Source: a virus
Lineage: Duplodnaviria; Heunggongvirae; Uroviricota; Caudoviricetes
Length of the DNA stretch: 64,000 nucleotides
Strand: one strand, 5' to 3'
Virus record (IMG/VR): IMGVR_UViG_2524614843_000001
Span: 39,279-103,278 of that record
Made by a program: the position numbers and the translations under genes. Shown piece after piece: positions 5,009 to 53,108 of the stretch; position 1 is the first letter of the stretch, and the number at the start of each line of letters is the position of its first letter. The notes under the pieces are model-generated. The model saw nothing but the letters and a program-made list of their open reading frames with translations, was not told the DNA's origin and did not search any database.

Positions 5009-5141
5009 TAATCCGGAGTAGATCGTGGATAGGTAGAAGTTGGGAATTTTTATGCTTTCCAATATTTATTAACTACAGATAGATAGAAAGATAATATCTA
5101 TTGGAGCGTCAAGATTTTCCCAACTCAACCTCTCCGGATTA
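5009..5141. repeat. Nested inverted-repeat element, copy 1 (TAATCCGGAG...GTTGGGAA...CCAATA-[AT-rich core TTAACTACAG + GATAGATAGAAAG]-TATTGG...TTCCCAAC...CTCCGGATTA)
   Basis: Three concentric inverted-repeat pairs around an AT-rich core; second copy at 17699-17860. Confidence 0.7.
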
Positions 5142-5453
5142 CTTCTCCGCGGTAGGCTTTGCAACGAAATTAAGCGCCCCTCGCCGGCTCGCAGCCAAGA
5201 TGCGGAAGGCTTCAAGCGTTGGCTTCCAGAGGTGTCGCTCCTTACCCTCTTCGACGATCACTTCACAGGCGGCAAGACCGTACTGCTGCAGATATGTCAG
5301 AGTGCAGCGCAGCGCACGCGGTGTCGGCGCGTAGCTGAGCATCAAGCGCAGCTCATTCGTCCGGATGGCCTTGCACGCCTCATTCTCATGACAGAGCCTT
5401 GCCAACACCTCCATCTGCTTTACGGTACCGGCGAACTGTTTGACCTTCTTCAT
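5139..5453 (-). CDS. Hypothetical protein (104 aa), last gene of ParB/ABC/GNAT operon
   Basis: GGAGGGA RBS; start overlaps stop of upstream GNAT-like gene. Confidence 0.5.
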   Translation of the reverse strand: MKKVKQFAGTVKQMEVLARLCHENEACKAIRTNELRLMLSYAPTPRALRCTLTYLQQYGLAACEVIVEEGKERHLWKPTLEAFRILAASRRGALNFVAKPTAEK

Positions 5454-6343
5454 GCCAGTCCCTCCAGATTGAGCGGCTCATGCACGCCCTGCCGGTCGAA
5501 TGCGGTCAGCGGAAGCCGGTCGGGCAGTACAAGCCCCACATCGGGGTTGAAGTAGAAGCCCCAGGCTGGCGCCCCGAAAATCAACTGCTGCATTTCCTTG
5601 AGCAAGTGAGCGGCCTCCATCGCCTCAACGCGCGAAGTACCGTTCTTCAAGTTTCCGCCCGTCTTTTCTTTGGCGCTCTCCTTGTAGTACCACTGCTTCA
5701 TGCGGCGCAGCACGCTCTGACGCATCACTTCCGGCATGGCATTGAGCTCGTTCATGATCGCTTCGTGGTCAACAGGGTCGGACTCGAACAGCCCGCGCAG
5801 GAACTTGAGCCCGATCTCGTACTTGGTGCTGGGCTCCGGCTTGGCGAAGCGAAAGCCTGCCCGCTCGGCGAACGGGTTGACCTTGCTCATCGAGCTGCTG
5901 ATCTCGTACAGGCGCAGGCCTTCCAGACGCATCGACAGGTTCAGCATCCGGTACGCCAGCCCGACGCCGCGGAACTGCGTGTCGTTGACCACGCGGGCGG
6001 CAAGCGCGAACTCCCGATTGATGACCTTGCCGCGCATGGTGTTGAGCAACGTGCTGTCTGCGCCTGGCTTGATGCCTGGCAGAACGCGGTGGCGGTTCTT
6101 GTCGAGCAGACGCGGGCGAGTGAACACCACAACACCGATGGTTTTGCCGGCCAGCACGCAGCGCCAGTAGTGGGCGCCGAACATGCTGTTGCTTTCGGTC
6201 TTGTAGTGCAGGGCGTGTAGCTGATGCCAGTCATCAATCGTTCCACGCTCCACGTACATATCGCGCAGCAATGAGAACGTGCGGGAAGCGGGCTGCAAGC
6301 GCATCAGACGCGCGTTTGCAGTGTCGGATAGGATAAGACTCAT
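5450..6343 (-). CDS. GNAT-fold acetyltransferase-like protein with about 120-aa C-terminal extension
   Basis: 297 aa; GNAT motif A-like RVVNDTQFRGVGLAYRML; translationally coupled to the upstream ABC ATPase gene. Confidence 0.5.
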   Translation of the reverse strand: MSLILSDTANARLMRLQPASRTFSLLRDMYVERGTIDDWHQLHALHYKTESNSMFGAHYWRCVLAGKTIGVVVFTRPRLLDKNRHRVLPGIKPGADSTLLNTMRGKVINREFALAARVVNDTQFRGVGLAYRMLNLSMRLEGLRLYEISSSMSKVNPFAERAGFRFAKPEPSTKYEIGLKFLRGLFESDPVDHEAIMNELNAMPEVMRQSVLRRMKQWYYKESAKEKTGGNLKNGTSRVEAMEAAHLLKEMQQLIFGAPAWGFYFNPDVGLVLPDRLPLTAFDRQGVHEPLNLEGLA

Positions 6344-6346
6344 CCT

Positions 6347-7054
6347 TCACTCTCCCGCGCGTTCTGAGCGCGTTTCTGCGTCATTCCGGACGATCTCGAC
6401 TTTCTCCCCGTAATACTTCTCCAGAATCAGGGACGGGTTGAGATCTTCGACCAGATCGCCGTGCGTGGTGGCGACGATCAGAGTCTTGCCGGCGCGGCGT
6501 GCAGCCTGCTGCAGTTGGTACGAGATTGCCTTTGCGGTGTTCCGGTCGAGCACGGCGCCGAACTCGTCGGCAACCCATACATCGGCATCGCTGCTCAGCA
6601 TATAGGCAAGCAATAGACGGTATTTCTGGCCATCCGACAGTTCGCCCGGGCGCCGGATGACGAGGTTTGCGTCATTGATACCGCCAAGAGACAGCAGCCG
6701 GATGGCTTCTTGCATGTCACCATTGGGCGCCAGCTGGTCCACCAGCGGCAGATTCGGGTCGAAAAGCTGACTCAAAACGCCATCTGAGGCCAACCCAATC
6801 GAGCCGACTTTCAAGCCGGCCGTTGCCAGCTGGCGAGCAGTTTCTCGCAGCGCGATGGATTTGCCGGAGCCGGATTCGCCTGTGATGTAGAAAACGTCGC
6901 CCTGCTCGATCTCGAACTGCAGGTTGTCGTAGATGGTGAACTGCTTGTCGTCCAAACCAACGCCAAACATTTCTGCGACCTGGCGCACGCGCTCAGTGCG
7001 CATAACTGACATGGCAAAGGCGACGTTCAGAGTGATGGTGTGTTTCCAGCTCAT
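6347..7054 (-). CDS. Stand-alone ABC-type ATPase (235 aa)
   Basis: Walker A GESGSGKS, ABC signature LSDGQKYRL, Walker B VWVADEF, H-loop TTHGD; ATGA overlap with upstream ParB-like gene. Confidence 0.7.
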   Translation of the reverse strand: MSWKHTITLNVAFAMSVMRTERVRQVAEMFGVGLDDKQFTIYDNLQFEIEQGDVFYITGESGSGKSIALRETARQLATAGLKVGSIGLASDGVLSQLFDPNLPLVDQLAPNGDMQEAIRLLSLGGINDANLVIRRPGELSDGQKYRLLLAYMLSSDADVWVADEFGAVLDRNTAKAISYQLQQAARRAGKTLIVATTHGDLVEDLNPSLILEKYYGEKVEIVRNDAETRSERAGE

Positions 7055-8427: not shown

Positions 8428-8454
8428 TCCCTTATCCGTCCTGCTAAAATGTTA

Positions 8455-8474
8455 GTCATCGATGACTTATCATA
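8455..8474 (-). promoter_or_regulatory. Class-A motif copy (perfect palindrome AGTCATCGATGACT + TATCATA) in divergent region between ParB operon and helicase
   Basis: GTCAtcgaTGACTTATCATA; oriented toward ParB-1. Confidence 0.5.
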
Positions 8475-12781: not shown

Positions 12782-13225
12782 GGTTTCCTTCCTGTCTTAT
12801 CGCTGGTTTTTTATGACGAGCACTGTAACACCGGAGAGGCGCGCGAGGCCATCTTGCGAGGATTTTGTCTACGCATGAACGAAACATTTGCTCGAGGGGA
12901 GGGCGACCTCATGGCGTCGTCCGTGGGTATAGGGGAGGGAAGAGTGCTCGGGGCGTGGGGTTGTGCCGGCAATGGATTCCAGCACTCCGCGTTTTTCTAG
13001 GGCTTCGATTCTGATTTGCTCGCTTTCTCGCTTTTGCTCTCTCGCTTGCTCGCTTGCTTGAATATCGCGCTATTTGACGCACAATCGCGCGCTATTGCGT
13101 TTTCTCTGTCGTGCTAGTATCTGACGCTATTCAATCCGCAAAACGCGCTAGAATCGCTTAAAAACGCTATTGCCTCGCTTGCTTGTTTCGCTTGCTGCTA
13201 CGCTAGCGCACAAAAAGAAAAAGCG

Positions 13226-13256
13226 CGGAATTATCCGCGCTTTCTATTTAATTACT
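13226..13256 (-). terminator. Rho-independent terminator after foreign gene (GCGCGG-ataatt-CCGCGC + TTTTTCTTTTT on minus)
   Basis: Seen on minus strand just 3' of stop at 13260. Confidence 0.6.
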
Positions 13257-13259
13257 TAA

Positions 13260-16252: not shown

Positions 16253-16597
16253 TCAAGCGATCAGCATTTTGACGCGGCGGGAGATCTCATTGAATACAGA
16301 ATTGCCAAGCGTGGCCACTTTCACGCCATTGCGCGCCACAATATCAATCGTGCGGATTTGCAGCGGGTCGATGTAGCCGGAAACTGGCATACCGACAGGG
16401 AGTGGAATATCTGTTTTTTGCGGACCATTATTGCGTGTCGTGATGGGAATAACGATCGCATAGTTGGTCGCTTTGAATTCAGGTATGGAAATAATCAGGA
16501 CTTTGCGCGCGTTCTTGTAGTCCATTTCGCGGCCTAATGAACCAGCATCAGGATGTTGCAGCTCGACAATATCGCCAGGATTGAATGAATGGGACAT
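16253..16597 (-). CDS. mazF: MazF/PemK-family endoribonuclease toxin
   Basis: 114 aa; GDIV...PITTR...I.IVAR pattern of MazF/PemK/CcdB fold. Confidence 0.7.
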   Translation of the reverse strand: MSHSFNPGDIVELQHPDAGSLGREMDYKNARKVLIISIPEFKATNYAIVIPITTRNNGPQKTDIPLPVGMPVSGYIDPLQIRTIDIVARNGVKVATLGNSVFNEISRRVKMLIA

Positions 16598-17048: not shown

Positions 17049-17090
17049 GTTCGTGTCCTCAGTACGTTATAACGTGATGTTATCACATAA
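17049..17090 (-). promoter_or_regulatory. Putative autoregulated TA promoter/operator (palindromes ACGTTATAACGT and GTGATgttATCAC)
   Basis: Palindromes immediately upstream of antitoxin start. Confidence 0.4.
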
Positions 17091-17524
17091 ATTTACGCAC
17101 GCAAGATGGCACTCTGATACAGCCCTGCACCCGCGGCCAGCAGCACGCTAACCGATTATGCTGCCCCGAGCTGAAAAGACAATAGCGATTCCCGACGCAG
17201 AAACCCATCAAATTTCGATTTTCTACCCCTCGGGTATATCACGACTCATCTGAGACGGGAAAATCGCTTAAATCGGGTTTATGCGGATTTCTCGGGCAGG
17301 CGGTCCAAATTGAGCACCACGGCACCCCTACACAACCACCTCTGCCCTCTCCCTCGACCAGTGACCCGCGCGGCGCATCCCACGGCCAAGCCAACCTCCT
17401 GCCTGGGAGTGGACTGCGCGCGCCGGTACCCTATATTGGCCGCCCGCCCCGAAATTTCCGGACAGCCTGGGCGCTGATATTGGCCACCCCGAGCCACCCG
17501 CAGTCAGCCTTGGTCAACCACGGC

Positions 17525-17552
17525 GAGACTGATCTGCCGAGAGTGAGGATGA
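17525..17552 (+). repeat. 28-bp direct repeat (iteron-like) copy 1: GAGACTGatcTGCCgAGAGTGAGGATGa
   Basis: One of 4 same-orientation copies. Confidence 0.7.
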
Positions 17553-17594
17553 CCAGGCTGCGGGACAGGCCGGATACCCGAGGGCGAGTACCGG

Positions 17595-17622
17595 AGAGAC
17601 TGGCGTGCCTAGAGTGGGGATG
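17595..17622 (+). repeat. Iteron-like repeat copy 2
   Basis: GAGACTGGCGTGCCTAGAGTGGGGATGG. Confidence 0.7.
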
Positions 17623-17698
17623 GCTCGTTCCTGAGCCGTGGGTGGCCGCGGCCAGGCTTTCACTCCCAATCCGGAAGTGGCGGACTGCCTGCGGCTCG

Positions 17699-17860
17699 TA
17701 ATCCGGAGGGTGGAGCAACTCGTCTGCTGAGTGGTTGGGAAGTTGGGAAGGTCAGAGTTGGGAAAAAGTGCTCGTCCCAATAGTTTTTATATTAACTACA
17801 GTGGATATATTAAATATTGGTGTGAGGAAAAATTCCCAACTTTTAGGCTCTCTCCGGATT
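17699..17860. repeat. Nested inverted-repeat element, copy 2 (TAATCCGGAG...GTTGGGAA x3...CCAATA-[AT core TTAACTACAG]-TATTGG...TTCCCAAC...CTCCGGATTA)
   Basis: Same architecture and orientation as copy 1 at 5009-5141; flanked by iteron-like repeats. Confidence 0.7.
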
Positions 17861-17881
17861 ACTCAAGAAAATCAATGGTTT

Positions 17882-17909
17882 GAGACTGGTTTGCCTAGAG
17901 TGAGGATGA
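17882..17909 (+). repeat. Iteron-like repeat copy 3
   Basis: GAGACTGGTTTGCCTAGAGTGAGGATGA. Confidence 0.7.
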
Positions 17910-18030
17910 GGCACTCCGGAAGTGCGTCAAACTGCCATTTTCCCAACTCCAAGGCGCCTCATTCCCAACTGCCTCTGTCATACCCTTCCGACCCATACAC
18001 GCGCACAGGCCGGGACTCGGGAAAGGCCTT

Positions 18031-18363
18031 TTAGTGGATGCTGTACTGCCACTGCAGCACGCGCGTCTGGTCCATCAGATCGCCAATCAGTCCGCGCGAC
18101 GCATTCTTCGCCGGAGACTTCCAAGACGCTGCCTTCCACAAGGTCAGGTCAGACAAACGCACAAACCCCCAAGCGGAACGCGAGTAGATATTGCCGGTCT
18201 CACGATCACGACGCACCATCACCAGGCGGGCATAGACCTTGCCATACTCCGCTTCGATGGTCAGCTCTTCATGCTTGTGCAGGCTCGGGTATTCCTTGGC
18301 CATGCGCTCACGCAAGATCTCAGTGGCACGAGTGATGGCATTCTGGATGGCTGTTGATGACAT
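18031..18363 (-). CDS. Hypothetical protein (110 aa)
   Basis: Start at MSSTAIQN with GGAGGA RBS; lies inside the non-coding repeat region. Confidence 0.45.
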   Translation of the reverse strand: MSSTAIQNAITRATEILRERMAKEYPSLHKHEELTIEAEYGKVYARLVMVRRDRETGNIYSRSAWGFVRLSDLTLWKAASWKSPAKNASRGLIGDLMDQTRVLQWQYSIH

Positions 18364-18448
18364 GAGGCATTCCTCCGTGTTGTTGACGGACTCATGTTCA
18401 TGTCTGCCTAGTGGCGCGTGCGCGGTAATCCGGAGTAGCCCGCGGCGA

Positions 18449-18476
18449 GAGACTGGTGTGACCAGAGTGAGGATGG
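18449..18476 (+). repeat. Iteron-like repeat copy 4 (preceded by TAATCCGGAGTAG half-site)
   Basis: GAGACTGGTGTGACCAGAGTGAGGATGG. Confidence 0.7.
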
Positions 18477-18526
18477 GCAGGACGTGCCAAGGTAGGGAGA
18501 GGAAAGGCACAGCCGAGGGAGCCGGC

Positions 18527-18715
18527 CCCACTCCCCGCCTCCTGTCCTTCGCCTCTGCGTCCTGTCGCTTGATCTATCTTCCTTACCTGTGTCCTACCCT
18601 TAGCCCCTACGTGTCCTACTACTTGCGCCCCTATACCCTACCTGCGCGTCTACTTACCCCTCTCTACCTAACCCTACTCTCTCTCGTACCTGTCTGATCT
18701 GTCTCTACCCTATCC
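18527..18715 (+). repeat. About 190-bp polypyrimidine (C/T >85%) tract
   Basis: Strongly strand-asymmetric composition, non-coding. Confidence 0.6.
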
Positions 18716-18728
18716 GGAGTGTCTGTGT

Positions 18729-18965: not shown

Positions 18966-19548
18966 GGATAGGTTCTCTTTGTGAAAATGGATGGCGTACC
19001 TCAGTCTGGATGAGGCCTGTCTGTGTGGAAGTATTCTGCCTGAATTGGATGGCGTTTTCTGGTTTGGCCTGTCTCTCTGTCTGTTTCTCTTCCTATCTAT
19101 CTATCGCTCTATCTCTCTGTCTAGCGGGAATGACGTTTCCCTGCGCTCTGCTGCGTTTTCGTGTGTCCGGATGAGTCGTGATATGTCCGGAGCTTGCCCG
19201 CGCGCTCTGTGTGCGATTGTGCGGATTTGTCTGGATGGATGACGAATGTGAGGGAGGATGAATTACCGGAGCAGGCTGATCATGTGTTTTTTGCTGCATT
19301 GATGCTGCATTTCTTCGCGAAGGCTTGAAATTATTGGCATTTTGAATAGGCGGAAATCGAAAGCCTATTTGCATTAAACCATTGTGAATACGACATACGA
19401 GCGTTGATTTGCGGCAGGATTGCGTCACTTTTACAGCAAACAGCGCTGGTTGAATCTTGGAATGCAGATATATTTGGAGGCATGAATAATTAGGTCTTAC
19501 CATATTGCCCATATACACACTTAATCATCTACCATTTGGGAGAATCTC

Positions 19549-20190
19549 ATGCGTGGTTTATTGGCAACCCTGGTATTTACGCTCCTGACCGGCTGCGGCA
19601 CTTTTGTCCGCACTAATGTATCGGTGTTTCACGAGCTGGACTCATCGCTATCTGGTGTCACTTACACGATTGTCCCTTCCAATGAGCAAAAAGAAAGCCT
19701 CGAGTTCCGGTCATACGCCAAGCTGATTAAAAACCAGCTGCAAACACGCGGCATGTCGGAGGTTCCATACAAAGAGGCCAAATACGCCATCTTGATGCAG
19801 TATGGAATCGATAATGGCCAAGAGGTTGTATCGACCTATCCTATTTTTGGCCAGACAGGGGTTAGCAGCACCTACACAACCGGTTCCGTGAACGTGTACG
19901 GCAATACTGCCACCTATAACGAGAGCACCTATGTCACTCCGACCTTCGGAGTTGTTGGTACCGGAACCTCATCAGACACGGTGTTTACCCGCTACTTGAA
20001 CCTAGACATTGTGGACATTGCGAATTCTGGCGATGGAAAGGTGAGAAAGGTCTACGAAGGCAAGGCGATCAGTAAAGGCTCTAGCAGCCAGCTCGCTCCA
20101 GTGATGCCATATATGGTGAAGAGCGTCTTTGAGGACTTCCCTGGCACTAGCGGTTCAACCAAGACGATTGAGTTGCCATTGCAAAAATAA
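19549..20190 (+). CDS. Lipoprotein (plus-strand moron; signal peptide, lipobox LLTGC)
   Basis: 213 aa; GGGAGA RBS; AT-rich promoter-like upstream region and own terminator. Confidence 0.65.
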   Translation: MRGLLATLVFTLLTGCGTFVRTNVSVFHELDSSLSGVTYTIVPSNEQKESLEFRSYAKLIKNQLQTRGMSEVPYKEAKYAILMQYGIDNGQEVVSTYPIFGQTGVSSTYTTGSVNVYGNTATYNESTYVTPTFGVVGTGTSSDTVFTRYLNLDIVDIANSGDGKVRKVYEGKAISKGSSSQLAPVMPYMVKSVFEDFPGTSGSTKTIELPLQK

Positions 20191-20195
20191 GCTGA

Positions 20196-20237
20196 CGTAA
20201 AATTTAGCCAAATAATAAAGGGTGGATTTTCCACCCT
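20196..20237. terminator. Rho-independent terminator (GGGTGG-atttt-CCACCC + TTTATTTT), A-rich on 5' side so potentially bidirectional
   Basis: Hairpin plus T-run after lipoprotein gene. Confidence 0.7.
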
Positions 20238-20250
20238 TTTATTTTGAGGT

Positions 20251-26072: not shown

Positions 26073-26213
26073 GACTGGTTACTTCGCGTGAAACTCGATG
26101 CGTGTATTGTGCAACTCAATTCGCGGCAAATAATAAGTCAGCGCGGACTGATTAACAAGCCCCAATTTATGCCCTTGGCACTAGGAAAAACCTGAATAAA
26201 TAGAAAGGCAGAA

Positions 26214-26250
26214 AGAAAGATAGATAGATAAATGGATAGATAGAAAGAAG
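26214..26250. repeat. Class-B motif, tandem copies (AGAAAGATAGATAGATAAATGGATAGATAGAAAGAAG)
   Basis: GATA-repeat family. Confidence 0.6.
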
Positions 26251-26251
26251 G

Positions 26252-26286
26252 CTAAAAAGATAGGCTGGAGCTATCTATCTCCAGCC
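26252..26286 (-). terminator. Terminator hairpin GGCTGGAG-ctatctat-CTCCAGCC followed on minus by TATCTTTTT
   Basis: After stop of 26303..27100. Confidence 0.6.
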
Positions 26287-26302
26287 TTCCTTGTTTCAGG
26301 CA

Positions 26303-29955: not shown

Positions 29956-30001
29956 GGTTTATTCCTTGTTCTTTTCGATGATTCAGTGTCCATCGAGCCA
30001 T

Positions 30002-30035
30002 AAGGGCGTGCATTCATTGTGAGAAGCACGCCCTT
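30002..30035. other. Strong hairpin AAGGGCGTGC-N14-GCACGCCCTT (no U-tract) followed by class-B motif at 30054-30070
   Basis: 10-bp perfect stem. Confidence 0.5.
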
Positions 30036-30092
30036 ATCTGGCTTTCTTGCTGTCTTTCTATCTATCTATCGCTCTTTCTAGTAAGCGATCTA

Positions 30093-30467: not shown

Positions 30468-30603
30468 GATCGTTCGTCTCCGCGGGCAACCAGGCATTTG
30501 GGTTAGTGACGGTTTGCCACCAGCTGACCCACGCATAAAGTGCTAGCTGGCCATAAAGCGGGACACCCCAAGCAGAATGAGGAAATAGGAACATAGCTAT
30601 CTA

Positions 30604-30620
30604 CCTTTCTATCTATCTAT
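30604..30620. repeat. Class-B motif copy CTTTCTATCTATCTATC
   Basis: GATA-repeat family. Confidence 0.6.
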
Positions 30621-30631
30621 CAATCTGGTTA

Positions 30632-31129
30632 TCAATCGATGGTGTAGCTGGTACTAGAATCGCCAAAGCTGTACTCAACACCGCCAGCAGATCGCGTAGG
30701 CTCGTCATGCGCGCTGCTAGAACTCCAGGCGCTTGAGGCAACGGTAGGGCTGGGAGAGAGCCCGCTTAATACGTGCCGGTCTGTGGTTTCACGCTCTGAC
30801 GAGCGATCAAGGGCATCGGTCTTGTCGAGCAGATCAATTGCCGCTGCGATGGCTGTGAAAGTCACTGCCGGTTCGTCGGTATCCGGCTTGGTCTGGGCAA
30901 ACCCAAATGAGGTTGATCGACTCGAAACTGTCGGCCGCGGAGTAGGCCGATCAAGGATTTCCAGTAACGCTTTATGCTCGGCATCCGAATCGACCAGTGC
31001 TCGGGTTGTGGCTACAGCCGGTTGGCTAGGTCGAGGTGTGGTCGCACGCTTGGGCGGCTGGGTGGCGATCGGCAAATCTGCTTTACGACGGAACAGCCGC
31101 TTGAAGAACGCTTTGATTGACAGTCTCAT
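30632..31129 (-). CDS. Hypothetical low-complexity (P/T/S-rich) protein
   Basis: ATGA overlap with upstream gene. Confidence 0.4.
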   Translation of the reverse strand: MRLSIKAFFKRLFRRKADLPIATQPPKRATTPRPSQPAVATTRALVDSDAEHKALLEILDRPTPRPTVSSRSTSFGFAQTKPDTDEPAVTFTAIAAAIDLLDKTDALDRSSERETTDRHVLSGLSPSPTVASSAWSSSSAHDEPTRSAGGVEYSFGDSSTSYTID

Positions 31130-31437: not shown

Positions 31438-31488
31438 AACTCACCTATTACTAACTTTGGTTAATGGGAAATAGGGCGATATTGGCTG

Positions 31489-31566
31489 TCTATCTATCTA
31501 TCGCTCTATCTGTGATTGATATTCTCTAGCTGCTTTTCTGGCTATCGATGGGAGATAGATAGAAAG
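31489..31566. repeat. Two class-B motif arms in inverted orientation (TCTATCTATCTATC ... GAGATAGATAGAAAG) flanking a 50-bp spacer
   Basis: Palindromic arrangement. Confidence 0.6.
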
Positions 31567-31585
31567 CCATGCCTATCACCAAGCC

Positions 31586-31613
31586 AAAAAGAGAGGCTGG
31601 GGAACAGCCTCTT
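31586..31613 (-). terminator. Rho-independent terminator (AGAGGCTG-gggaa-CAGCCTCT + CTTTTTGG on minus) after membrane protein gene
   Basis: Hairpin plus T-run. Confidence 0.65.
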
Positions 31614-31644
31614 AAATCACCACAAGGAAAAATGGTTTGGGCGC

Positions 31645-36903: not shown

Positions 36904-37176
36904 TTAAGCAGGCAGCTTCTTGATCGAAGGCACTGGCTTAAATTTGAAGGCGCGGTGAGCTGGAATGTTCACATTTTCACCATTCGCAGGATTGCGCTTC
37001 ACAGCTGCCGCCTTATCAACCGCTTGGAAAGTACCGAAGTCAGCGATAGTCACTTTATCGCCGGCTTTGACCTGGGCAGCGATGGTATCGAACAGGTCTT
37101 TGACGATCTGTTCTGCTAAGGCTTTGGTGATGTTATGGTCAGCTGCGATCTTTGCAGCCAGCTCTTTACGAGTCAT
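36904..37176 (-). CDS. HU/IHF-family DNA-binding protein
   Basis: 90 aa; GDKVTIADFGTF...RNP.NGE....P motif typical of HU. Confidence 0.8.
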   Translation of the reverse strand: MTRKELAAKIAADHNITKALAEQIVKDLFDTIAAQVKAGDKVTIADFGTFQAVDKAAAVKRNPANGENVNIPAHRAFKFKPVPSIKKLPA

Positions 37177-37825: not shown

Positions 37826-37844
37826 GGGTTTTCCTTCTTTCTCG

Positions 37845-37861
37845 CTTTCTATCTATCTATC
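37845..37861. repeat. Class-B motif copy CTTTCTATCTATCTATC in trx 5' leader
   Basis: Minus reads GATAGATAGATAGAAAG cg AGAAAGAAGGAAAAccc ATG. Confidence 0.6.
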
Positions 37862-37878
37862 TTGCTATTTAGCTAGCC

Positions 37879-38889
37879 TTAATCATCATCGCCCCAATCC
37901 AGCGCACCGCTCTTATACGAAACCACTTTGGTCTCGAAGAAGTTACGCAGGTTGCCGTTGATGGAGCTGTAATCCAAGAACCAAGGAATCGGATTGCTCA
38001 CCATATAGATTGGCTCCATACCAAGCATTACCGCACGGTCATCAACCAGCCACTTCACAAAGTCGGTAATGATGGCCGGCGTCAGGCCCATTACACCCTT
38101 CTCGACGATGTGGCAGCCCCAGGTGATTTCCAGATTGCCGGCGTTGATCAGAAGTTGGCGAGCGTCGCGCCAGAAGTCGGCATCAAAGATCTCGGGGTTC
38201 TCTTCGCGCAGTGTCCGGAACATCGACAGGAAGAGCGCCAAATGCGACTCCTCGTCCCTCTGTATGAGCTTAATTCCTTCGGCAGTACCAGGCATCTTGG
38301 AATTGCGCGCCAGCGCGTAGAAGGTGGCAAAGGCCGAGTAGAAGTAGATGCCCTCCAGCGCGATATTCGAGACCACTGCGAGCGCGAAATTGCGCGGGCT
38401 ATAGTCGTTACCCAAGATCGCGGACTGCGCCAGAATGTGCTCGTTCTTGGCTGCGAGAATGTCGTCGCGCATGAACAGGGTGTAAATGCTGCTCGGGTCG
38501 TCGGTGATCGCTTCGATGATGGTTGAGTAGGCCTTCACATGCAGCGCTTCTTCCCAAGTCTGCCGGCTGATGGCCATGCGGACTTCCGGACTGGTGATGT
38601 AGGGCGCAATGTTGTCCGCTAGGTTGTGGAACTGGATACCGTCGAGATTGGATACGAAGGCTAGTGCGCTGTCGAAAGCGTGACGCTCACCGGTGGTCAG
38701 ATCACCACCCTTGTACTGCATAACGTCGCGGCCAAGTGCCATCTCCTTGACCGTCCAGTTATTGCTTTCCATTGTTTCGATTAACTCCCAAGCCCATTTG
38801 TGCTTGAGTGGTGATACGCACATCAGACGATCGTGGGAGCCGCCGATGAGCCGGCGATTGTTGACTGATTCGATGATGGCTTGTTGCAT
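37879..38889 (-). CDS. nrdB: Ribonucleotide reductase class I small (beta) subunit
   Basis: 336 aa; di-iron ligand motifs incl. DEESHLALF. Confidence 0.85.
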   Translation of the reverse strand: MQQAIIESVNNRRLIGGSHDRLMCVSPLKHKWAWELIETMESNNWTVKEMALGRDVMQYKGGDLTTGERHAFDSALAFVSNLDGIQFHNLADNIAPYITSPEVRMAISRQTWEEALHVKAYSTIIEAITDDPSSIYTLFMRDDILAAKNEHILAQSAILGNDYSPRNFALAVVSNIALEGIYFYSAFATFYALARNSKMPGTAEGIKLIQRDEESHLALFLSMFRTLREENPEIFDADFWRDARQLLINAGNLEITWGCHIVEKGVMGLTPAIITDFVKWLVDDRAVMLGMEPIYMVSNPIPWFLDYSSINGNLRNFFETKVVSYKSGALDWGDDD

Positions 38890-38910
38890 GTTGTGTTTTC
38901 CTCTACGTTA

Positions 38911-38930
38911 GTCATCGATGACTGACTAAT
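38911..38930 (-). promoter_or_regulatory. Class-A motif copy (GTCAtcgaTGACTgACTAAT)
   Basis: Palindromic core AGTCATCGATGACT identical to copy at 8455. Confidence 0.5.
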
Positions 38931-40650: not shown

Positions 40651-42975
40651 TTACTGGCAGGATTCGCAGTCTGGATTATCCACTGCGCACATTTTGCCAA
40701 GCTCGGGCGCTGGCGATTCGGCCTTTGCCTTCACTTCGCTAGATGGAGTGCGCAAGTAGTAGGTGGTCTTGCAGCCCAACTCCCAAGCCAGTTCGTACCA
40801 GCCGGACAGTGTTGGGCCATCGATGCCGCCGTCCTTGTCAACGAAAATGTTGAGGGACTGCGACTGGTCAATCCACTTGCCGCGGACTGCAGCCGCCTTG
40901 ATCAGCCAGGTCTGCGCAATTTCAAACGCAGTCTTGATGATCTTGCGGCCGTAGCGCAGAGTCGGGTCAATCACGCGATAGTCGCCGCCCAAGTTGGATG
41001 CGGTGTATTCGCGCTGATAAACCGGCTCGATGCAAGGCGTGGTACCGACGATATTGCTGATCGTTGCCGTTGGCGCAATGGCCATGCAGTTAGAGTTGCG
41101 CATACCGAAGGTCATCACCAGTTCACGAACACCTTCCCAATCGCACGTAGACCACTCGCCATCATGCAGTGCGGCTACTGCATCCTTATTGATCACAGTG
41201 TCGATCGGTAGAATGCCCTTCGACCACTTCGAGCCGGCAAAGCTAGGATACGCACCGCGCTCCTGCGCCAGCTCGCATGAGGCGATGATTGCGCAATAGC
41301 TGACCCATTCCATCATGCGGTCAGCGGCCTCTAAATGCTCGCGGCTATCCCATTCGTAGCCGGCAGCGGCCAGCCACTCGGTATAGCCCATGATGCCTAA
41401 ACCAACAGGGCGATGACGCAGATTGGATGCGCGCGCTCGCTCAGATGGGTAGAAGTTAATGTCGATCACGTTGTCGAGCATACGCATTGCCGTTGATACC
41501 GTGCGCTTGAGCTTGGCTGAGTCCAGCGTGATGTACTTCTCGCCGTTCTCTTCCACTTCGATCAAGTGGCGCGACAGGTTTACCGAGCCCAGGTTGCAGA
41601 CTGCCGTTTCGTCATCGCTGGTGTTCAGCGTGATCTCGGTGCAGAGGTTGGAGTTATGCACCACGCCAACGTGATCTTGCGGGCTGCGCAGATTGCAAGC
41701 GTCTTTGAAGTTCACCCAAGGATGACCGGTCTCGAACAGCATGGTCAGCATTTTGCGCCACAGCTTGCGTGCCGGCATTTGGCTGTGAATCTTCTCAGGC
41801 TCATTTTCGACGATTTCGTTGTAGCGCTTGCTGAACGCCTCGCCATACAGATCGTGCAGCTCTGGTGCCACGCTCGGGTCGATGAAGAACCACTCAGCCT
41901 TCGCCTTGACGCGCTTCATGAACTCGTCCGGAATCCAGCTGGCAGGGAAAATGTCGTGCGCGCGGCGGCGCTCGTCACCAGTGTTTTTCTTGAGCTCGCA
42001 GAAGGCAGGGAAGTCCGGATGCCAGGGCTCCATGTATGCAGCGAATGCGCCATTGCGCTTGCCGCCCTGATTAACCGCTACCGCAGTATCGTTGAACACT
42101 TTGAGATAAGGAATGGTGCCGGCCGATTTGCCTTGTGTACCCTTGATCAACGCACCTTCACCACGAACGCGAGTCCAGTCAGTACCGATACCACCGGCCC
42201 ACTTCGACAGCATGGCGCACTCTTCAATCGTGCCGTAAATAGAGGCATGGCGCGCATTGATCGGGTCGTCCGAAGTCAGCGTATCGGCTACCGTGTTCAG
42301 ATAACAGCTCGACAATTGGCTGCGCGGCGTGCCGGCGTTGAACAGGGTAGGGGTGCTGCTCATGAAGTCGAAGGTCGAGAGCACATTGTAAAATTCGATG
42401 GCGCGCAGAGTCGGGTGCGGCTCATTGATTGCCAGGCCCATCGCAACACGCATAAAGAAATGCTGCGGCATTTCGATGATCTTGCCCTTGCGCTCTTTAC
42501 CTACGGGGTCAAGACGAATCAGGTAGCGATCAGCAACCGCACTGATGCCTTGATAATCGAACAACAAGTCACGGCTTGGGTCGATGGCATCATTGAGCTG
42601 CTTGAAATTGAATAGGCCAGAATCCAACACTGGATTGAGTCGGCCAATCTTTACGCCTTTGGCGATATAGCTTTCCAATGAAGGGTATTCAACATCACCA
42701 CCGGTCACTTCCTTGATGATGCGCTGATACATCAGACGCGCAGCAAAGAAACGGTAGTCCTGTTTATCCAACGCAATAAAGCCAGCGGCCGTCCGAATCG
42801 CCGCCTCTTGGATTTCGTGTGTGCTAATGCCCTCATACAGTTGCGGAATTACTGCATCAAGAACCAGCTTAGCGTCAACATCAAGCCCCTTTCCGGCAAT
42901 AACAAGGGCATTAAGTAGTTTGTCGCTATTAAATTGAACTTGAGAACCGGAGCGTTTTTGTACGTTTTTCAGCAT
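40651..42975 (-). CDS. nrdA: Ribonucleotide reductase class I large (alpha) subunit with N-terminal ATP-cone
   Basis: 774 aa; ATP-cone, catalytic Cys motifs, C-terminal CxxC-like tail (CAVDNPDCESCQ). Confidence 0.9.
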   Translation of the reverse strand: MLKNVQKRSGSQVQFNSDKLLNALVIAGKGLDVDAKLVLDAVIPQLYEGISTHEIQEAAIRTAAGFIALDKQDYRFFAARLMYQRIIKEVTGGDVEYPSLESYIAKGVKIGRLNPVLDSGLFNFKQLNDAIDPSRDLLFDYQGISAVADRYLIRLDPVGKERKGKIIEMPQHFFMRVAMGLAINEPHPTLRAIEFYNVLSTFDFMSSTPTLFNAGTPRSQLSSCYLNTVADTLTSDDPINARHASIYGTIEECAMLSKWAGGIGTDWTRVRGEGALIKGTQGKSAGTIPYLKVFNDTAVAVNQGGKRNGAFAAYMEPWHPDFPAFCELKKNTGDERRRAHDIFPASWIPDEFMKRVKAKAEWFFIDPSVAPELHDLYGEAFSKRYNEIVENEPEKIHSQMPARKLWRKMLTMLFETGHPWVNFKDACNLRSPQDHVGVVHNSNLCTEITLNTSDDETAVCNLGSVNLSRHLIEVEENGEKYITLDSAKLKRTVSTAMRMLDNVIDINFYPSERARASNLRHRPVGLGIMGYTEWLAAAGYEWDSREHLEAADRMMEWVSYCAIIASCELAQERGAYPSFAGSKWSKGILPIDTVINKDAVAALHDGEWSTCDWEGVRELVMTFGMRNSNCMAIAPTATISNIVGTTPCIEPVYQREYTASNLGGDYRVIDPTLRYGRKIIKTAFEIAQTWLIKAAAVRGKWIDQSQSLNIFVDKDGGIDGPTLSGWYELAWELGCKTTYYLRTPSSEVKAKAESPAPELGKMCAVDNPDCESCQ

Positions 42976-51292: not shown

Positions 51293-51341
51293 CGACTTCA
51301 ATTTTCTCCACACATACCTCCTGCAAGGGCGCAAATAATAT

Positions 51342-51360: not shown

Positions 51361-51641
51361 CAAGCCTCTGTTTGTATTTGCTGACAGAACATATTTTATT
51401 GAAGGAAATAAGGTGTGAAACGGTAGAAACTTGATTACAAAAACAAAACGGACATGGCTGGAAAATTTGCGTCGTTTTGTAGACACCACTCGGTAAAAAT
51501 CACTTGCTCTTGCGAAAGTCCCGTAAATGGCTCAAGATGATACATATACGCTACATAAGCGCCCCCCACTGTTACTTTTACGCCTCTATGCTCGCTCGAC
51601 ACAGGACTACCCATCCGTTCATGCTTATGAGGTGACTAATT

Positions 51642-51872
51642 ATGGCCATCACAACCCTGAAAAAAATACCTCGGCAGTTTATGTACGCCGGTGTGAATCG
51701 TTCTTGCGCTTCTGATAGAATGTTCCTCGTCTCCCGAGAGGACTTTGATCGTTTGATCGGGCCAAATCACGAGCGTCTCTCCCAAGATAGAGTTAGGGAG
51801 ATCGCTACATTCATGGTTCGTAAGATCAATAGTCGCGGCAAAATAAATGGAAGAATCAAAAAAGTCGGTTAG
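51642..51872 (+). CDS. DUF1778/TacA-like antitoxin (short; C-terminal toxin-binding region conserved)
   Basis: 76 aa; DRMFLVSREDFDRLIGPN resembles DUF1778 C-terminal segment; GAGGTGA RBS. Confidence 0.45.
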   Translation: MAITTLKKIPRQFMYAGVNRSCASDRMFLVSREDFDRLIGPNHERLSQDRVREIATFMVRKINSRGKINGRIKKVG

Positions 51873-52521
51873 TGAAGAACCAAACTTTGATGCCGACGAG
51901 ATCGGCCCATTGAAGCCTGAACATGATTGTTCGGGCTTCGTTGTTTCTGCGCCCGCAGACGCGAGCGGCGACGAGCAGATTCGCTTTGCCGATCTGCAAA
52001 ACTACCTAACCTCCGGTCAGGCACTCGCAGAGCACACTGCAGGCTATACCAAAGTCACCGTCGTCTACAACGGTAAAACGCAAGAAGTTCACGGCTACTA
52101 TACCTGCAACGTCACTACGCTCAACGTGATGGATAGCCGTAGCACCGTATGCCCCGGCGCAACCGATCACTTCGACGTTCAAGTGCCGACTTACGGAGTG
52201 CCGGCGCTCATGCTTAGCAGGCTTGCCGTTCGCTCGGATGTGCAAGGTTTCGGCTATGGTAGTGAGATGATGCAAGACCTCTTCCAGCATTTTGAAGAGG
52301 TCGCACAAGTGACGCCATTGACCGGCATTGCTCTGGACTATCTCGACGCCAAAGCCATGAGTTTTTATGGCAAATTCGGCTTCTCGGCATTCAACAACAA
52401 GAACACCAAGCACCGCATGTTCCTTTCGAGAGCAGACGTGATCGCGCTGAATGCCACCGTTGTCGATGAAATCGCCGATGCCGAAGAGGCGCTCGACGAA
52501 GCGACGGACAAGACTAGCTGA
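51847..52521 (+). CDS. GNAT-family toxin (TacT/KacT-like aminoacyl-tRNA acetyltransferase)
   Basis: 224 aa; PLKPEHD.SGF.....GYYTCNVTTL and ALMLSRLAVRSDVQGFGYGSEMM follow the TacT pattern. Confidence 0.6.
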   Translation: MEESKKSVSEEPNFDADEIGPLKPEHDCSGFVVSAPADASGDEQIRFADLQNYLTSGQALAEHTAGYTKVTVVYNGKTQEVHGYYTCNVTTLNVMDSRSTVCPGATDHFDVQVPTYGVPALMLSRLAVRSDVQGFGYGSEMMQDLFQHFEEVAQVTPLTGIALDYLDAKAMSFYGKFGFSAFNNKNTKHRMFLSRADVIALNATVVDEIADAEEALDEATDKTS

Positions 52522-53026
52522 CCCGCTTCATGTAGATGGCCGTGGCGTATTTGTTCTGCATCGCCAGGTTGCCGTAGCAGTTCCGCAGGACGCGCCAGAT
52601 CGCCTTGCCTGGCTCGTCTACTTCCTTGCCGAGCAGGGTGTGATTGTCAGCGCCAAAGTTGTCACACACATCCTGCAGCTCGCCGGCATAGACCGCATCC
52701 ACCTCGCCATACCCGAAGATCTGACCGGTCTTTGTGCTGACCAGACCAACCCGAGTACCGATCTTCACACGTTCCGCCCAGGCTTTCCCCACTCGAATCG
52801 TATTAAAGCGCGCCGTCATACCGGCATCTGACTGGAAGGCAATGACAGGCAGGAAGTCGCTACATTCCGTGATGCGCTGTGCGCTGGAGTACGGAGCAAG
52901 CACGGCACGCTCGCACGCCAGCTGATTGCCGCAGTGCGCGCAAAGTGACTTGTCCGCTTGCTTGGAAGTCGTGATGTAGCCGGCAGGAGTGAGCCGGACG
53001 TACCGATAGTTGGTGTCCAAAGTCAT
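52514..53026 (-). CDS. Hypothetical protein (PUA/ASCH-like?)
   Basis: Start at MTLDTNYRY; CxxC pair; convergent 8-nt overlap with GNAT toxin gene. Confidence 0.4.
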   Translation of the reverse strand: MTLDTNYRYVRLTPAGYITTSKQADKSLCAHCGNQLACERAVLAPYSSAQRITECSDFLPVIAFQSDAGMTARFNTIRVGKAWAERVKIGTRVGLVSTKTGQIFGYGEVDAVYAGELQDVCDNFGADNHTLLGKEVDEPGKAIWRVLRNCYGNLAMQNKYATAIYMKRVS

Positions 53027-53087
53027 GAGGTTCGGGTTCCTGTTCTTGTTTTGCTGGAATCCTAGCGCCCCTTGCTTTGGATAGCAA

Positions 53088-53108
53088 GAAAGATAGATAG
53101 ATAGAAAG
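53088..53108. repeat. Class-B motif copy AGAAAGATAGATAGATAGAAAG
   Basis: GATA-repeat family. Confidence 0.6.

What the first reader, a model, noticed from the sequence alone, without database searches (positions are those of the whole stretch)
5078..53108. Class-B motif: (GATA)3GAAAG repeats in about 10 intergenic regions, usually next to terminator hairpins
CTTTCTATCTATCTATC / GATAGATAGATAGAAAG occurs at 5078, 19093, 26214 (tandem), 30054, 30604, 31489 and 31553 (inverted pair), 37845 and 53088, in both orientations.

Several copies lie directly after rho-independent terminators (26252-26286, 31586-31613, 53115-53141) or a strong hairpin (30002-30035). They sit 20-60 nt before the next start codon; at trx the motif abuts the RBS.

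This suggests a second promoter class, or regulator-binding or RNA-level sites, that defines individually terminated transcription units.
Basis: seen in the sequence. Interest (0 to 1): 0.55.

Follow-up and report, generated by a model that had tools for sequence, protein, structure and literature searches.

The report
GATA-repeat tracts between phage-plasmid genes
A 103-kb phage-like plasmid of the bacterium Chitinibacter carries eleven short (GATA)n repeat tracts, always between genes and half of them beside transcription stop hairpins. They are real and far from chance and do not behave like promoters, but their job, most likely a protein-bound boundary mark, is unproven.

Summary
The core GATAGATAG occurs 17 times against 0.19 expected. 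All 17 hits lie in 8 spacers, within the 12.9% of the window that is non-coding.

The 17-mer is the best-conserved part of 30-55 nt degenerate period-4 tandem arrays, (GATA/GAAA/GACA)n. These are purine-rich on one strand, and "AG" stays in register for 8-14 units.

Five arrays have the purine strand as gene-sense and five have the pyrimidine strand. An eleventh 9-mer copy sits in a terminator loop. In four spacers the array is joined in a fixed orientation to a GC hairpin. Three of these hairpins are intrinsic terminators of the upstream gene, and two of the array-plus-terminator composites are clearly copies of each other.

There is no -35/-10 partner at fixed spacing, and one array ends 19 nt before an ATG. 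The "second promoter class" reading is therefore not supported.

The element is a separate contig of Chitinibacter tainanensis and an SSU5/nickie-like phage-plasmid. It has no close relative in any collection searched, so orthologous conservation cannot be tested. More distant relatives lack GATA arrays but carry their own spacer motifs.

My best guess, at low confidence, is duplicated DNA-level protein-binding or architectural boundary sites. Rival readings are a strand-specific RNA function, recombination cassettes, and neutral repeats.

The parts
5074..5094 (+). Class-B array with two GATA units plus GAAAG. The pyrimidine strand is gene-sense. It lies 49 nt after the stop of gene 5139-5453, in the 272-nt spacer upstream of terS.
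19065..19128 (-). Period-4 purine tract of 14 or more AGNN units, with core at 19089-19105. It lies in the divergent spacer between the 78-aa gene (start at 18965) and the DUF4136 gene (start at 19549).
26194..26251 (+). Double array (cores within 26215-26251) directly after the U-tract of the terminator of gene 26303-27100. The pyrimidine strand is gene-sense.
26262..26287 (-). Intrinsic terminator hairpin (9 bp stem, usable in both directions). Its 8-nt loop is ATAGATAG; the 9-mer copy of the core at 26271-26279 overlaps it.
30030..30085 (-). Period-4 purine tract with an exact 17-mer at 30054-30070. The purine strand is gene-sense. It lies 23 nt after the stop of gene 30093-30467.
30001..30036 (-). 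Strong GC hairpin without a U-tract, 18 nt downstream of the array and 46 nt before the start of gene 29692-29955.
   Evidence: z -6.7; coding score supports the minus-strand gene
30589..30632 (-). Period-4 purine tract with an exact 17-mer at 30605-30621, 7 nt after the stop of gene 30632-31129. A 40-odd-aa ORF with a poor coding score starts 10 nt after the 17-mer.
31482..31517 (-). Purine-sense array with core at 31486-31502, 48 nt before the ATG at 31437. It is one arm of an inverted pair.
31550..31566 (+). Pyrimidine-sense array 25 nt after the terminator stem (about 20 nt after its U-tract). It is the other arm of the inverted pair; the two arms pair as a long hairpin in the -46.5 kcal/mol fold of 31470-31619 (z -3.0).
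31592..31612 (-). Intrinsic terminator of gene 31645-31953. Its A-tract and stem match the 26.2-kb terminator at 18 of 22 positions.
37829..37880 (-). Purine-sense tract with an exact 17-mer at 37845-37861. It lies 18 nt after the stop of the 336-aa gene 37879-38889 (nrdB by position; not tested) and 19 nt before the thioredoxin ATG, running into its Shine-Dalgarno sequence.
53075..53126 (+). Pyrimidine-sense tract with an exact 17-mer at 53092-53108, directly after the recA terminator. It sits at the recA-side edge of a 4.9-kb stretch that phage nickie lacks.
53121..53145 (-). Intrinsic terminator hairpin of recA (gene 53155-54150).
36904..37176 (-). Phage-encoded HU/IHF-family DNA-binding protein (90 aa). 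It is the last gene of the array-headed unit trx / 81-aa gene / HU / terminator. It is a candidate binder by inference only.

Best explanation
The (GATA)3GAAAG motif is the conserved core of a lineage-specific family of short, degenerate tetranucleotide tandem arrays. The arrays punctuate the spacers of the accessory and early region of a Chitinibacter SSU5-like phage-plasmid.

I think they most likely act on double-stranded DNA as orientation-independent recognition or architectural sites for a DNA-binding protein. In this reading they mark and insulate the ends of transcription units together with the adjacent intrinsic terminators. A comparable case is the IHF-binding RIP/BIME elements next to hairpins at operon ends in E. 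coli. Others are the dispersed operators of P1 and the tandem short-repeat operators of plasmid ribbon-helix-helix repressors.

The family grew by duplication of array-plus-terminator cassettes. A phage-encoded HU/IHF-family protein (36904-37176) is a candidate binder.

**Shown:**
- non-random occurrence confined to spacers
- period-4 array structure
- mixed orientation
- fixed array-hairpin geometry
- common descent of two composites
- absence of promoter features

**Inferred:**
- protein binding
- the identity of the binder
- the insulating role
For: - **Occurrence.** There are 17 core hits against 0.19 expected, all in the 12.9% of the window that is non-coding.
- **Conservation.** GATAGATA plus a further G is invariant in 10 aligned copies, with decaying flanks, as expected for a recognition core.
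- **Orientation.** The asymmetric sites occur in both orientations, with one tandem and one inverted pair. This fits a DNA-level site and not a promoter.
- **Geometry.** Four spacers have the same layout: purine array, 12-36 nt (mostly A-rich), then a GC hairpin.
- **Common descent.** The 26.2-kb and 31.6-kb terminators match at 18 of 22 positions, so array plus terminator was copied as a unit.
- **Subfamilies.** Subsets of copies share 18-22 nt including non-periodic bases, for example AGAGCGATAGATAGATAG.
- **Eight-bp periodicity.** The arrays also read as 8-bp repeats, AGAAAGAT x3.4 and TCTTTCTA x4.1. From memory, this is the spacing used by tandem-repeat operators of MetJ/ParG/omega-type repressors.
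- **Candidate binder.** An HU/IHF-family gene sits in the cassette headed by the 37.8-kb array and is absent from the equivalent 58 kb of phage nickie.
- **Parallel in a relative.** Nickie has its own 14-mer, TTTGCAAGCGTTTA, in 8 copies: both orientations, all in spacers, with one tandem and one inverted pair, in the equivalent ORFan region.
Against: - No binding protein has been shown. The HU/IHF link rests on position only, and the E. coli IHF consensus WATCAANNNNTTR is absent from every array.
- A 4-bp register does not match the DNA helical repeat, so it is an unusual format for a duplex-binding protein.
- The arrays do not overlap recognisable promoters, unlike P1 operators.
- The fixed orientation of array relative to hairpin could equally mean that both are read on one RNA strand.
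- No related genome carries the arrays, so purifying selection cannot be demonstrated.
Confidence: 0.3

Rival explanations
1. The tracts are strand-specific RNA-level elements. Read as pyrimidine RNA (CUUUCUAUCUAUCUAUC..., UC every 4 nt, G-poor, unstructured), a tract just behind an intrinsic terminator would load Rho and act as a fail-safe stop. Copies in the other orientation would do the same for antisense transcripts. Read as purine RNA, they would give an unstructured A/G-rich leader that feeds into the ribosome-binding site.
For: - Three of the five pyrimidine-sense arrays start 0-20 nt after the U-tract of the upstream gene's terminator, always on the terminator's strand.
- Single arrays are predicted to be unpaired.
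- The pyrimidine strand is C-rich and G-poor over 30-55 nt. In my own hand count of the 53.1-kb tract (sequence, not computed by a tool), C is about 26% and G about 12%.
- From memory (Guerin et al. 1998, NAR), simple polypyrimidine repeats act as artificial Rho-dependent terminators in one orientation only.
- Two purine-sense copies end 19 and 10 nt before an ATG.
- Outside this phage, non-microsatellite copies of the exact 17-mer sit 6-19 nt before the ATG of a long ORF in 11 of 65 cases.
Against: - A compositional signal such as a rut site does not explain an invariant 9-17 nt core.
- Half the arrays are purine in the sense RNA, so the model needs unproven antisense transcription.
- The purine-sense copies lie 10 to 123 nt from start codons, so there is no fixed ribosome-binding-site relationship.
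- At 30-55 nt the arrays are short for a Rho loading site.
Confidence: 0.2
2. The tracts are recombination-spread punctuation cassettes, in the manner of the T4 PeSL elements. The array, with or without its terminator, would be a short repeated patch copied around the ORFan-rich region. It would serve mainly as microhomology for shuffling, gain and loss of accessory genes by the phage's own recombination genes (RecA-like, gp32-like, 5'-3' exonuclease, SbcCD-like; Pfam-level assignments). Any regulatory effect would come from the terminator it carries.
For: - Two array-plus-terminator composites are homologous (18 of 22 positions).
- Subfamilies share 18-22 nt.
- Seven of the 11 arrays lie in 26.2-31.6 kb, among genes with no Pfam or PHROG function; the 474-aa protein at 21932-23356 was shown to be an ORFan.
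- Arrays sit where gene content differs from relatives. The recA-to-sbcD interval holds 10 genes in 4.9 kb here but 2 genes in nickie. The spacer upstream of terS replaces a 131-140-aa gene present in L117 and L118.
- Phage-encoded recombination genes are present in the window.
Against: - Mixed orientation would produce inversions rather than cassette exchange.
- No second genome carries the arrays, so no exchange event can be shown.
- A core of 17-28 bp is at or below the usual minimum for efficient homologous recombination.
Confidence: 0.2
3. The motif is a second promoter class recognised by a phage-specific sigma factor or activator.
For: - The tracts lie in spacers upstream of genes, and three follow terminators, where the next unit would be expected to start.
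- In the 53.1-kb spacer a weak TTGCTA-17-TAGGAT site abuts the array.
Against: - Orientation relative to gene direction is 5:5.
- No conserved partner element sits at a fixed spacing.
- The GATA register cannot form TAnnnT on either strand.
- The array ends 19 nt before the trx ATG and is fused to its Shine-Dalgarno sequence.
- No sigma factor or RNA polymerase gene was found among the proteins scanned or precomputed.
- Sigma-70-like sites are fewer than in shuffled sequence.
Confidence: 0.05
4. The tracts are neutral microsatellite-like products of replication slippage that persist in non-coding DNA and have no function.
For: - TRF calls them period-4 tandem repeats with 6-10 degenerate copies.
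- Another period-4/8 tract, (AGCG/AGCA)n, without the GATA core lies at 13003-13068.
- The compact three-frame stop property of (GATA)3G is not part of a general enrichment: 23 such blocks against a mean of 16.8 in shuffles.
Against: - The same unit, the same number of perfect units (three in 6 loci, never more) and the same 3' flank GAAAG recur at independent loci.
- 'AG' is kept in register while the other two positions vary, which is not what uniform decay would give.
- Only 8 of about 50 spacers of 30 nt or more carry the arrays.
Confidence: 0.05

Closest known systems
RIP/RIB-type BIME elements of E. coli (IHF site flanked by REP hairpins at the 3' ends of transcription units; from memory: Oppenheim et al. 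1993, Boccard & Prentki 1993)
   Same: - A dispersed extragenic repeat family lying after gene ends.
- It occurs in both orientations and is physically coupled to hairpins.
- It contains an asymmetric protein-binding stretch.
- An HU/IHF-family gene is present in this element.
   Different: - The arrays carry no IHF consensus.
- The repeat is a tetranucleotide tandem array, not a palindrome.
- It is on a phage-plasmid, not a chromosome.
- Binding is untested.
Dispersed asymmetric operators of phage-plasmid P1 (C1 repressor, 17-bp sites) and 'stoperators' of mycobacteriophage L5 (from memory; cluster A context in PMC6550527, title and abstract as listed only)
   Same: - About ten asymmetric sites of 13-17 bp are scattered through spacers of a temperate phage or plasmid genome.
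- Some occur as tandem or inverted pairs.
   Different: - P1 operators overlap promoters, and stoperators have one orientation relative to transcription. Here there is no promoter overlap and orientation is 5:5.
- The internal tandem-repeat nature is unlike either.
PeSL (promoter-early stem-loop) cassettes of T4-type phages (from memory: Arbiol et al. 2010)
   Same: - A short repeated spacer cassette including a stem-loop.
- It is concentrated in the ORFan-rich hyperplastic region.
- The copies are related by descent, and some sit beside gene-content differences.
   Different: - PeSLs carry a recognisable early promoter and share the orientation of transcription.
- Here no promoter is present and orientation is mixed.
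Tandem short-repeat operators of ribbon-helix-helix plasmid proteins (omega heptads, ParG tetramer boxes with 8-bp periodicity, MetJ 8-bp metboxes; from memory)
   Same: - Arrays of very short repeats with 4-8 bp periodicity, in direct or inverted order, on plasmids.
- They are read cooperatively by small dimers.
   Different: - Those arrays sit at promoters or centromeres of specific operons, not dispersed over 48 kb.
- No ribbon-helix-helix protein was detected among the small proteins scanned.
TRAP-binding (G/U)AG repeat leaders and artificial polypyrimidine rut sites (from memory)
   Same: - A single-stranded register of 8-14 short repeats next to a hairpin (UAG or AG every 4 nt).
- A pyrimidine repeat works as a Rho entry site in one orientation.
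   Different: - TRAP needs 2-3 nt spacers, giving a period of 5-6.
- Most array-hairpin composites here are on the non-coding strand.

Membership tests
Bacterial sigma-70-type or phage-specific promoter | One orientation relative to the downstream gene | tested here: not met
   Five arrays are purine-sense and five pyrimidine-sense relative to minus-strand genes.
Bacterial sigma-70-type or phage-specific promoter | A -10-like TAnnnT and/or a second conserved block at fixed spacing, with room for a leader | tested here: not met
   No conserved flank was found. Promoter-like scans are not enriched and give no consistent position. The trx copy ends 19 nt before the ATG.
Intrinsic terminator | GC-rich hairpin followed by a U-tract formed by the motif itself | tested here: not met
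   Arrays are predicted unpaired when single. Hairpins are separate, adjacent elements in 4 of 8 spacers.
L5-type stoperators | Asymmetric sites with a single orientation relative to the direction of transcription | tested here: not met
   Orientation is 5:5.
L5-type stoperators / P1 C1 operators | Bound by the prophage immunity repressor | not testable with these tools
   No repressor was identified, and binding needs EMSA or ChIP.
P1 C1-type dispersed operators | Overlap with promoters of the controlled genes | tested here: inconclusive
   Weak sigma-70-like sites lie 0-90 nt from some arrays, with no constant overlap. The host promoter consensus is unknown.
IHF-binding site (RIP/RIB) | WATCAANNNNTTR core | tested here: not met
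   Only 2 matches occur in the window, at 17870 and 37014, and neither is in an array.
T4 PeSL-like recombination cassette | Copies related by descent that include a stem-loop | tested here: met
   The 26.2-kb and 31.6-kb array-plus-terminator composites match at 18 of 22 positions in the A-tract and stem.
T4 PeSL-like recombination cassette | Cassettes flank genes that are swapped between related genomes | tested here: inconclusive
   The only comparisons possible are with distant relatives. There are extra genes after recA relative to nickie and a missing gene before terS relative to L117 and L118. No relative carries the arrays.
Plasmid iterons / centromere repeats | Clustered direct repeats at an origin or partition site | tested here: not met
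   The arrays are spread over 48 kb. A separate 33-nt repeat family at 17525-18481 is the better iteron candidate.
Phase-variable microsatellite | Long perfect repeat run of variable length | tested here: not met
   There are never more than three perfect GATA units, and the same number recurs at six loci. Length polymorphism between isolates could not be examined.
Known RNA family | Match to an Rfam covariance model | tested here: not met
   There were no Rfam hits at gathering threshold and no tRNA or tmRNA in the window.

The most novel reading that the evidence does not exclude
The arrays could be tracks for an oligomeric protein that reads single-stranded nucleic acid in a 4-nt register, with AG kept every 4 nt for 8-14 units. 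Working with the adjacent hairpin, this would be a TRAP-like or nut-like device. It would switch termination at unit boundaries on or off, or form a natural bidirectional insulator combining a three-frame stop block, a terminator and a Rho pad. That would be a new kind of phage-plasmid gene-expression punctuation.
Probability: 0.08. Interest if true: 0.7.

Novelty: new variant of a known kind. Interest (0 to 1): 0.35.

Why it matters
SSU5-like phage-plasmids are widespread, including carriers of resistance genes, yet how they partition their genomes into separately controlled units is essentially unstudied. This element carries two mutually exclusive spacer motif systems:
- a palindromic class A at core genes
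- GATA arrays at accessory genes

A distant relative has its own dispersed 14-mer in the equivalent region. This suggests that lineage-specific spacer codes are a general feature of the group.

If the arrays are protein-bound boundary sites, they offer a handle on how accessory 'moron' genes are insulated, silenced or expressed in the plasmid state. They would also be simple parts for synthetic insulators. If they are only recombination scars, they mark hot spots of gene gain.

Tried and rejected
1. **Close relatives for orthologous comparison.** Megablast of 12 kb against phages found only one short 76% match, to a ThyX gene of an unrelated phage. The best non-self portal is 59% identical in a 5.8-billion-protein database. 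The 474-aa neighbour is an ORFan. A protein-pattern scan of viral contigs found nothing.

2. **Collection scans with the 17-mer.**
   - Viral contigs gave 13 single hits.
   - Genome contigs gave 100 hits. This is the listing cap, and Chitinibacter was not among them, so the host was not tested.
   - The genome hits were mostly (GATA)n microsatellites, contamination, or a Coleofasciculus repeat.
   - No other genome showed dispersed copies.

3. **Relatives.** L117 and L118 (21 kb each), nickie (58 kb) and the DUF4136 homologue loci carry no GATA arrays.

4. **Three-frame stop idea.** (GATA)3G carries TAG in all three frames and needs exactly three units to do so. However, compact three-frame stop blocks are not enriched overall (23 against a mean of 16.8, range 7-26). 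Half the arrays face the wrong way. I treat this property as incidental.

5. **Sigma-70 promoter scans**, both strict and relaxed, showed no consistent relation to the arrays.

6. **Rfam and tRNA searches** found nothing.

7. **IHF consensus** is absent from the arrays.

8. **Search for a regulator.** No ribbon-helix-helix or helix-turn-helix protein turned up among ten small proteins; the only hit was an HU/IHF-family protein. Its nearest phage homologues are 44% identical or less, so co-occurrence with arrays could not be tested.

9. **Attempt to reach host chromosomal DNA** through a host-like moron gene. The DUF4136 search returned homologues from other bacteria only.

10. **Literature search** for the motif found nothing relevant.

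11. **Small ORF after the 30.6-kb array.** It has a poor coding score of -0.25.

Full report
**What the window is**

The portal protein is 100% identical to a Chitinibacter tainanensis protein on a 103,278-bp contig. The next best hit in 5.8 billion proteins is 59% identical. Coordinates from a Logan assembly of the same run place the window at the last 64 kb of that contig.

Portal, terminase, split DnaE, RNR, SbcCD-like, RecA-like, gp32-like and CobS-like ATPase genes tie it to the SSU5 / RHEph10 / nickie group of about 100-120-kb siphophages and phage-plasmids, at about 40-52% protein identity. Three features fit a plasmid-prophage lifestyle, by inference:
- it is a separate contig in an isolate genome
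- it has a PemK-family toxin gene
- it has iteron-like 33-nt repeats

Nearly all genes are on the minus strand.

- The 17-mer with up to 2 mismatches matches 14 times against 0 expected.
- The 9-mer core matches 17 times against 0.19 expected.
- Using the Logan gene calls plus my own ORFs for the gaps, 12.9% of the window is non-coding. All 17 core hits lie in 8 spacers: 4867-5138, 18966-19548, 26073-26302, 29956-30092, 30468-30631, 31438-31644, 37826-37878 and 53027-53154.
- That makes eleven arrays: ten full ones plus a 9-mer in a terminator loop.

**What the motif really is**

- Tandem Repeats Finder reports period-4 arrays of 6-10 degenerate copies at six loci.
- A test for 'AG' kept in a 4-nt register over 8 units finds the same loci and none in 20 shuffles.
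- The unit series reads, for example, GAAA GAGC GATA GATA GATA GAAA GACA GCAA GAAA.
- In an alignment of ten copies, GATAGATA plus a further G is invariant, and the flanks decay (alignment A1).
- Six loci have exactly three perfect GATA units, and none has more.
- Subfamilies share 18-22 nt including non-periodic bases, such as AGAGCGATAGATAGATAG and ATAGCAAGA.

The finding is therefore a family of 30-55-bp strand-asymmetric tetranucleotide arrays (purine with T on one strand) with a 13-17-bp conserved core.

**Orientation and neighbours**

- The purine strand is gene-sense at 19.1, 30.07, 30.6, 31.50 and 37.9 kb.
- The pyrimidine strand is gene-sense at 5.1, 26.22, 26.24, 31.55 and 53.1 kb.
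- Four spacers share one geometry: purine array, 12-36 nt (mostly A-rich), then a GC hairpin.
- In three of these (26.2, 31.6 and 53.1 kb) the hairpin plus U-tract is, on the other strand, the intrinsic terminator of the upstream gene. The array follows it as a pyrimidine tract.
- In the fourth (30.0 kb) the composite faces the other way. It sits between two minus-strand genes, whose reality is supported by codon-usage scores.
- The A-tract and stem of the 26.2-kb and 31.6-kb terminators match at 18 of 22 positions, so array plus terminator was duplicated as a unit.
- About ten good minus-strand spacer terminators exist in the window, and only three carry arrays.
- The 31.50 and 31.55-kb arrays form a long inverted repeat (fold of 31470-31619: -46.5 kcal/mol, z -3.0). 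Single arrays are predicted unpaired.

**Why the arrays are not promoters**

- Orientation is 5:5 relative to gene direction.
- Nothing is conserved at a fixed distance on either side.
- Sigma-70-like sites are fewer than in shuffles, and under relaxed criteria they lie at inconsistent distances.
- By direct reading, a GATA register can never give TAnnnT on either strand.
- The trx copy ends 19 nt before the ATG, merged with the Shine-Dalgarno sequence.
- No sigma factor or RNA polymerase gene appeared in the Pfam or PHROG results.

I find it to be the palindrome TAAGTCA-N4-TGACTTA, often just after a TAnnnT box. It is present at 18 or more spacers of core genes. Classes A and B share only one spacer.

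**Comparative evidence**

- Collection scans with the exact 17-mer returned only isolated hits, microsatellites and an unrelated cyanobacterial repeat.
- Two metagenomic relatives (58-59% portal identity) and phage nickie have no GATA arrays.
- L117 has its own class-A-like palindrome, ACAGTCAG-AA-CTGACTGT, at seven spacers.
- Nickie has eight spacer copies of TTTGCAAGCGTTTA in both orientations, with a tandem and an inverted pair, in its ORFan region.

Lineage-specific dispersed spacer motifs therefore look like a trait of the group.

Arrays here also sit where gene content differs from relatives:
- The recA-to-sbcD interval is 4.9 kb with 10 genes here, against 0.9 kb with 2 genes in nickie. 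The 53.1-kb terminator plus array lies at its edge.
- The terS-upstream spacer replaces a 131-140-aa gene present in L117 and L118.

**Mechanism**

I weigh four readings.

*DNA-level protein site (0.30).*
- In favour: the invariant core with decaying flanks, both orientations, tandem and inverted pairs, restriction to spacers, and the nickie parallel.
- Precedents from memory: P1 operators, L5 stoperators, IHF-binding RIP/BIME elements beside hairpins at operon ends, and short-repeat operators of ribbon-helix-helix proteins with 8-bp periodicity. TRF also sees 8-bp units here.
- A phage HU/IHF-family gene (Pfam E = 2.8e-25) is the last gene of the unit headed by the 37.8-kb array, and it is missing from 58 kb of nickie. 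This is only a lead.
- Against: the E. coli IHF consensus is absent from the arrays, and no binder has been shown.

*Strand-specific RNA role (0.20).*
- In favour: the fixed array-terminator geometry, the unstructured G-poor pyrimidine tracts behind three terminators, and, from memory, the orientation-dependent behaviour of artificial polypyrimidine rut sites.
- Against: it does not explain the invariant core or the purine-sense half.

*Recombination cassette without a sequence-specific role (0.20).*
- In favour: the demonstrated duplication and the accessory-region bias.
- Against: the mixed orientation, and no observed exchange event.

*Promoter (0.05) and neutral slippage (0.05).* Both are disfavoured for the reasons given above.

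The remaining probability is unassigned.

**A discarded idea**

(GATA)3G places TAG in all three frames and needs exactly three units to do so. The class-A (TAAG)n run does the same with TAA. Compact three-frame stop blocks are not enriched overall (23 against 16.8 in shuffles), and half the arrays face the wrong way. I treat this property as incidental.

Elsewhere in bacteria, the exact 17-mer, when not part of a microsatellite, lies 6-19 nt before a long ORF's ATG in 11 of 65 cases. Three of these are Burkholderiales housekeeping genes. This shows that such purine tracts are tolerated, and possibly useful, in ribosome-binding regions. Only two arrays here have that spacing.

**Verdict**

- The promoter interpretation is not supported.
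- The association with unit boundaries is supported.
- The function is unresolved, with a DNA-level boundary or operator-like role as the leading, low-confidence model.

The element is a new variant of a known kind, namely dispersed spacer repeats of phage and plasmid genomes. It is unusual in being a tetranucleotide tandem array. Interest is moderate to low (0.35) until binding or transcript data exist.

Noticed in passing
window, for example 366, 2934, 4990, 7742, 8456, 13925, 34753, 35815, 35883, 37442, 43655, 50460, 55124, 58246, 61266, 62577; also L014 12524, 13521, 16623, 18253: The class-A motif is a palindrome, TAAGTCA-N4-TGACTTA, usually just after a TAnnnT box. It is in gene-sense orientation at 18 or more spacers of core replication and structural genes. 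It often contains the upstream stop codon and abuts the next ATG. It looks like a promoter/operator or a 5' hairpin unit. Relative L117 has an analogous palindrome, ACAGTCAG-AA-CTGACTGT, at 7 spacers.
   Followed up: partly
window 4867-5138: The spacer upstream of terS holds a sigma-70-like TTGACT-18-TAATAT (4993 to 4964) followed by a strong terminator (4915 to 4888, 11-bp stem and T7) only 22 nt before the terS ATG. This layout resembles lambda pR'-tR' and suggests antitermination control of the late operon.
   Followed up: no
window 17525-18481 (copies at 17525, 17596, 17882, 18449); non-coding stretches 17049-18030 and 18364-18728: Four to five copies of a 33-nt direct repeat, GAGACTGGT.TGCC.AGAGTGAGGATG, lie in unusually long non-coding DNA next to a PemK-family toxin gene (16253-16597). 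They are candidate plasmid iterons or an origin.
   Followed up: no
window 36904-37176 (-): A phage-encoded HU/IHF-family DNA-binding protein of 90 aa (Pfam PF00216, E = 2.8e-25; closest NCBIfam model is IHF alpha, below its cut-off). It is absent from the equivalent region of phage nickie.
   Followed up: partly
window 12782-13259: A 478-nt spacer begins with a bidirectional terminator (13218-13245). It is then filled with (AGCG/AGCA)n period-4/8 repeats and four AATAGCG boxes on the gene-sense strand. This is a second kind of period-4 purine tract, without the GATA core.
   Followed up: no
window 63956-64000: A perfect 12-nt tandem repeat, TTCGGACTCGGG x3.8, runs into the end of the window, which is also the end of the 103,278-bp contig. 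It may be a genome terminus, a longer repeat array, or an assembly edge.
   Followed up: no
window 19549-20190 (+): A DUF4136 lipoprotein gene on the opposite strand, with its own bidirectional terminator (20217-20239). It is 66-70% identical to chromosomal genes of Zoogloeaceae and other bacteria, so it is a host-derived moron.
   Followed up: yes
L120 27409, 32399, 32426, 33130, 34633, 34643, 36892, 39270 (Pseudomonas phage nickie): Nickie carries eight spacer copies of TTTGCAAGCGTTTA in its ORFan region, in both orientations. One pair is tandem (27 bp apart). One pair is inverted and forms a hairpin followed by a T-run.
   Followed up: partly
window 8454-8467 and 38910-38923: A perfect 14-nt palindrome, AGTCATCGATGACT, lies in each of the two divergent spacers (ParB-like / helicase, and 37879-38889 / plus-strand genes). 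It is a symmetric variant of class A.
   Followed up: no
window about 41476-41735 (inside nrdA, 40651-42975): The Logan assembly of the same sequencing run breaks into two contigs inside nrdA, whereas the NCBI contig is continuous. The cause is unknown.
   Followed up: no
L051, L062, L073, L085, L088, L097, L113 (Coleofasciculus chthonoplastes MAG): The exact 17-mer is part of a multi-copy repeat, ...CATGGGATAGATAGATAGAAAGAGAGAGATTGAAAATACTTCGGGG..., that often sits at contig ends. It is probably a cyanobacterial mobile or repeat element unrelated to this phage.
   Followed up: no
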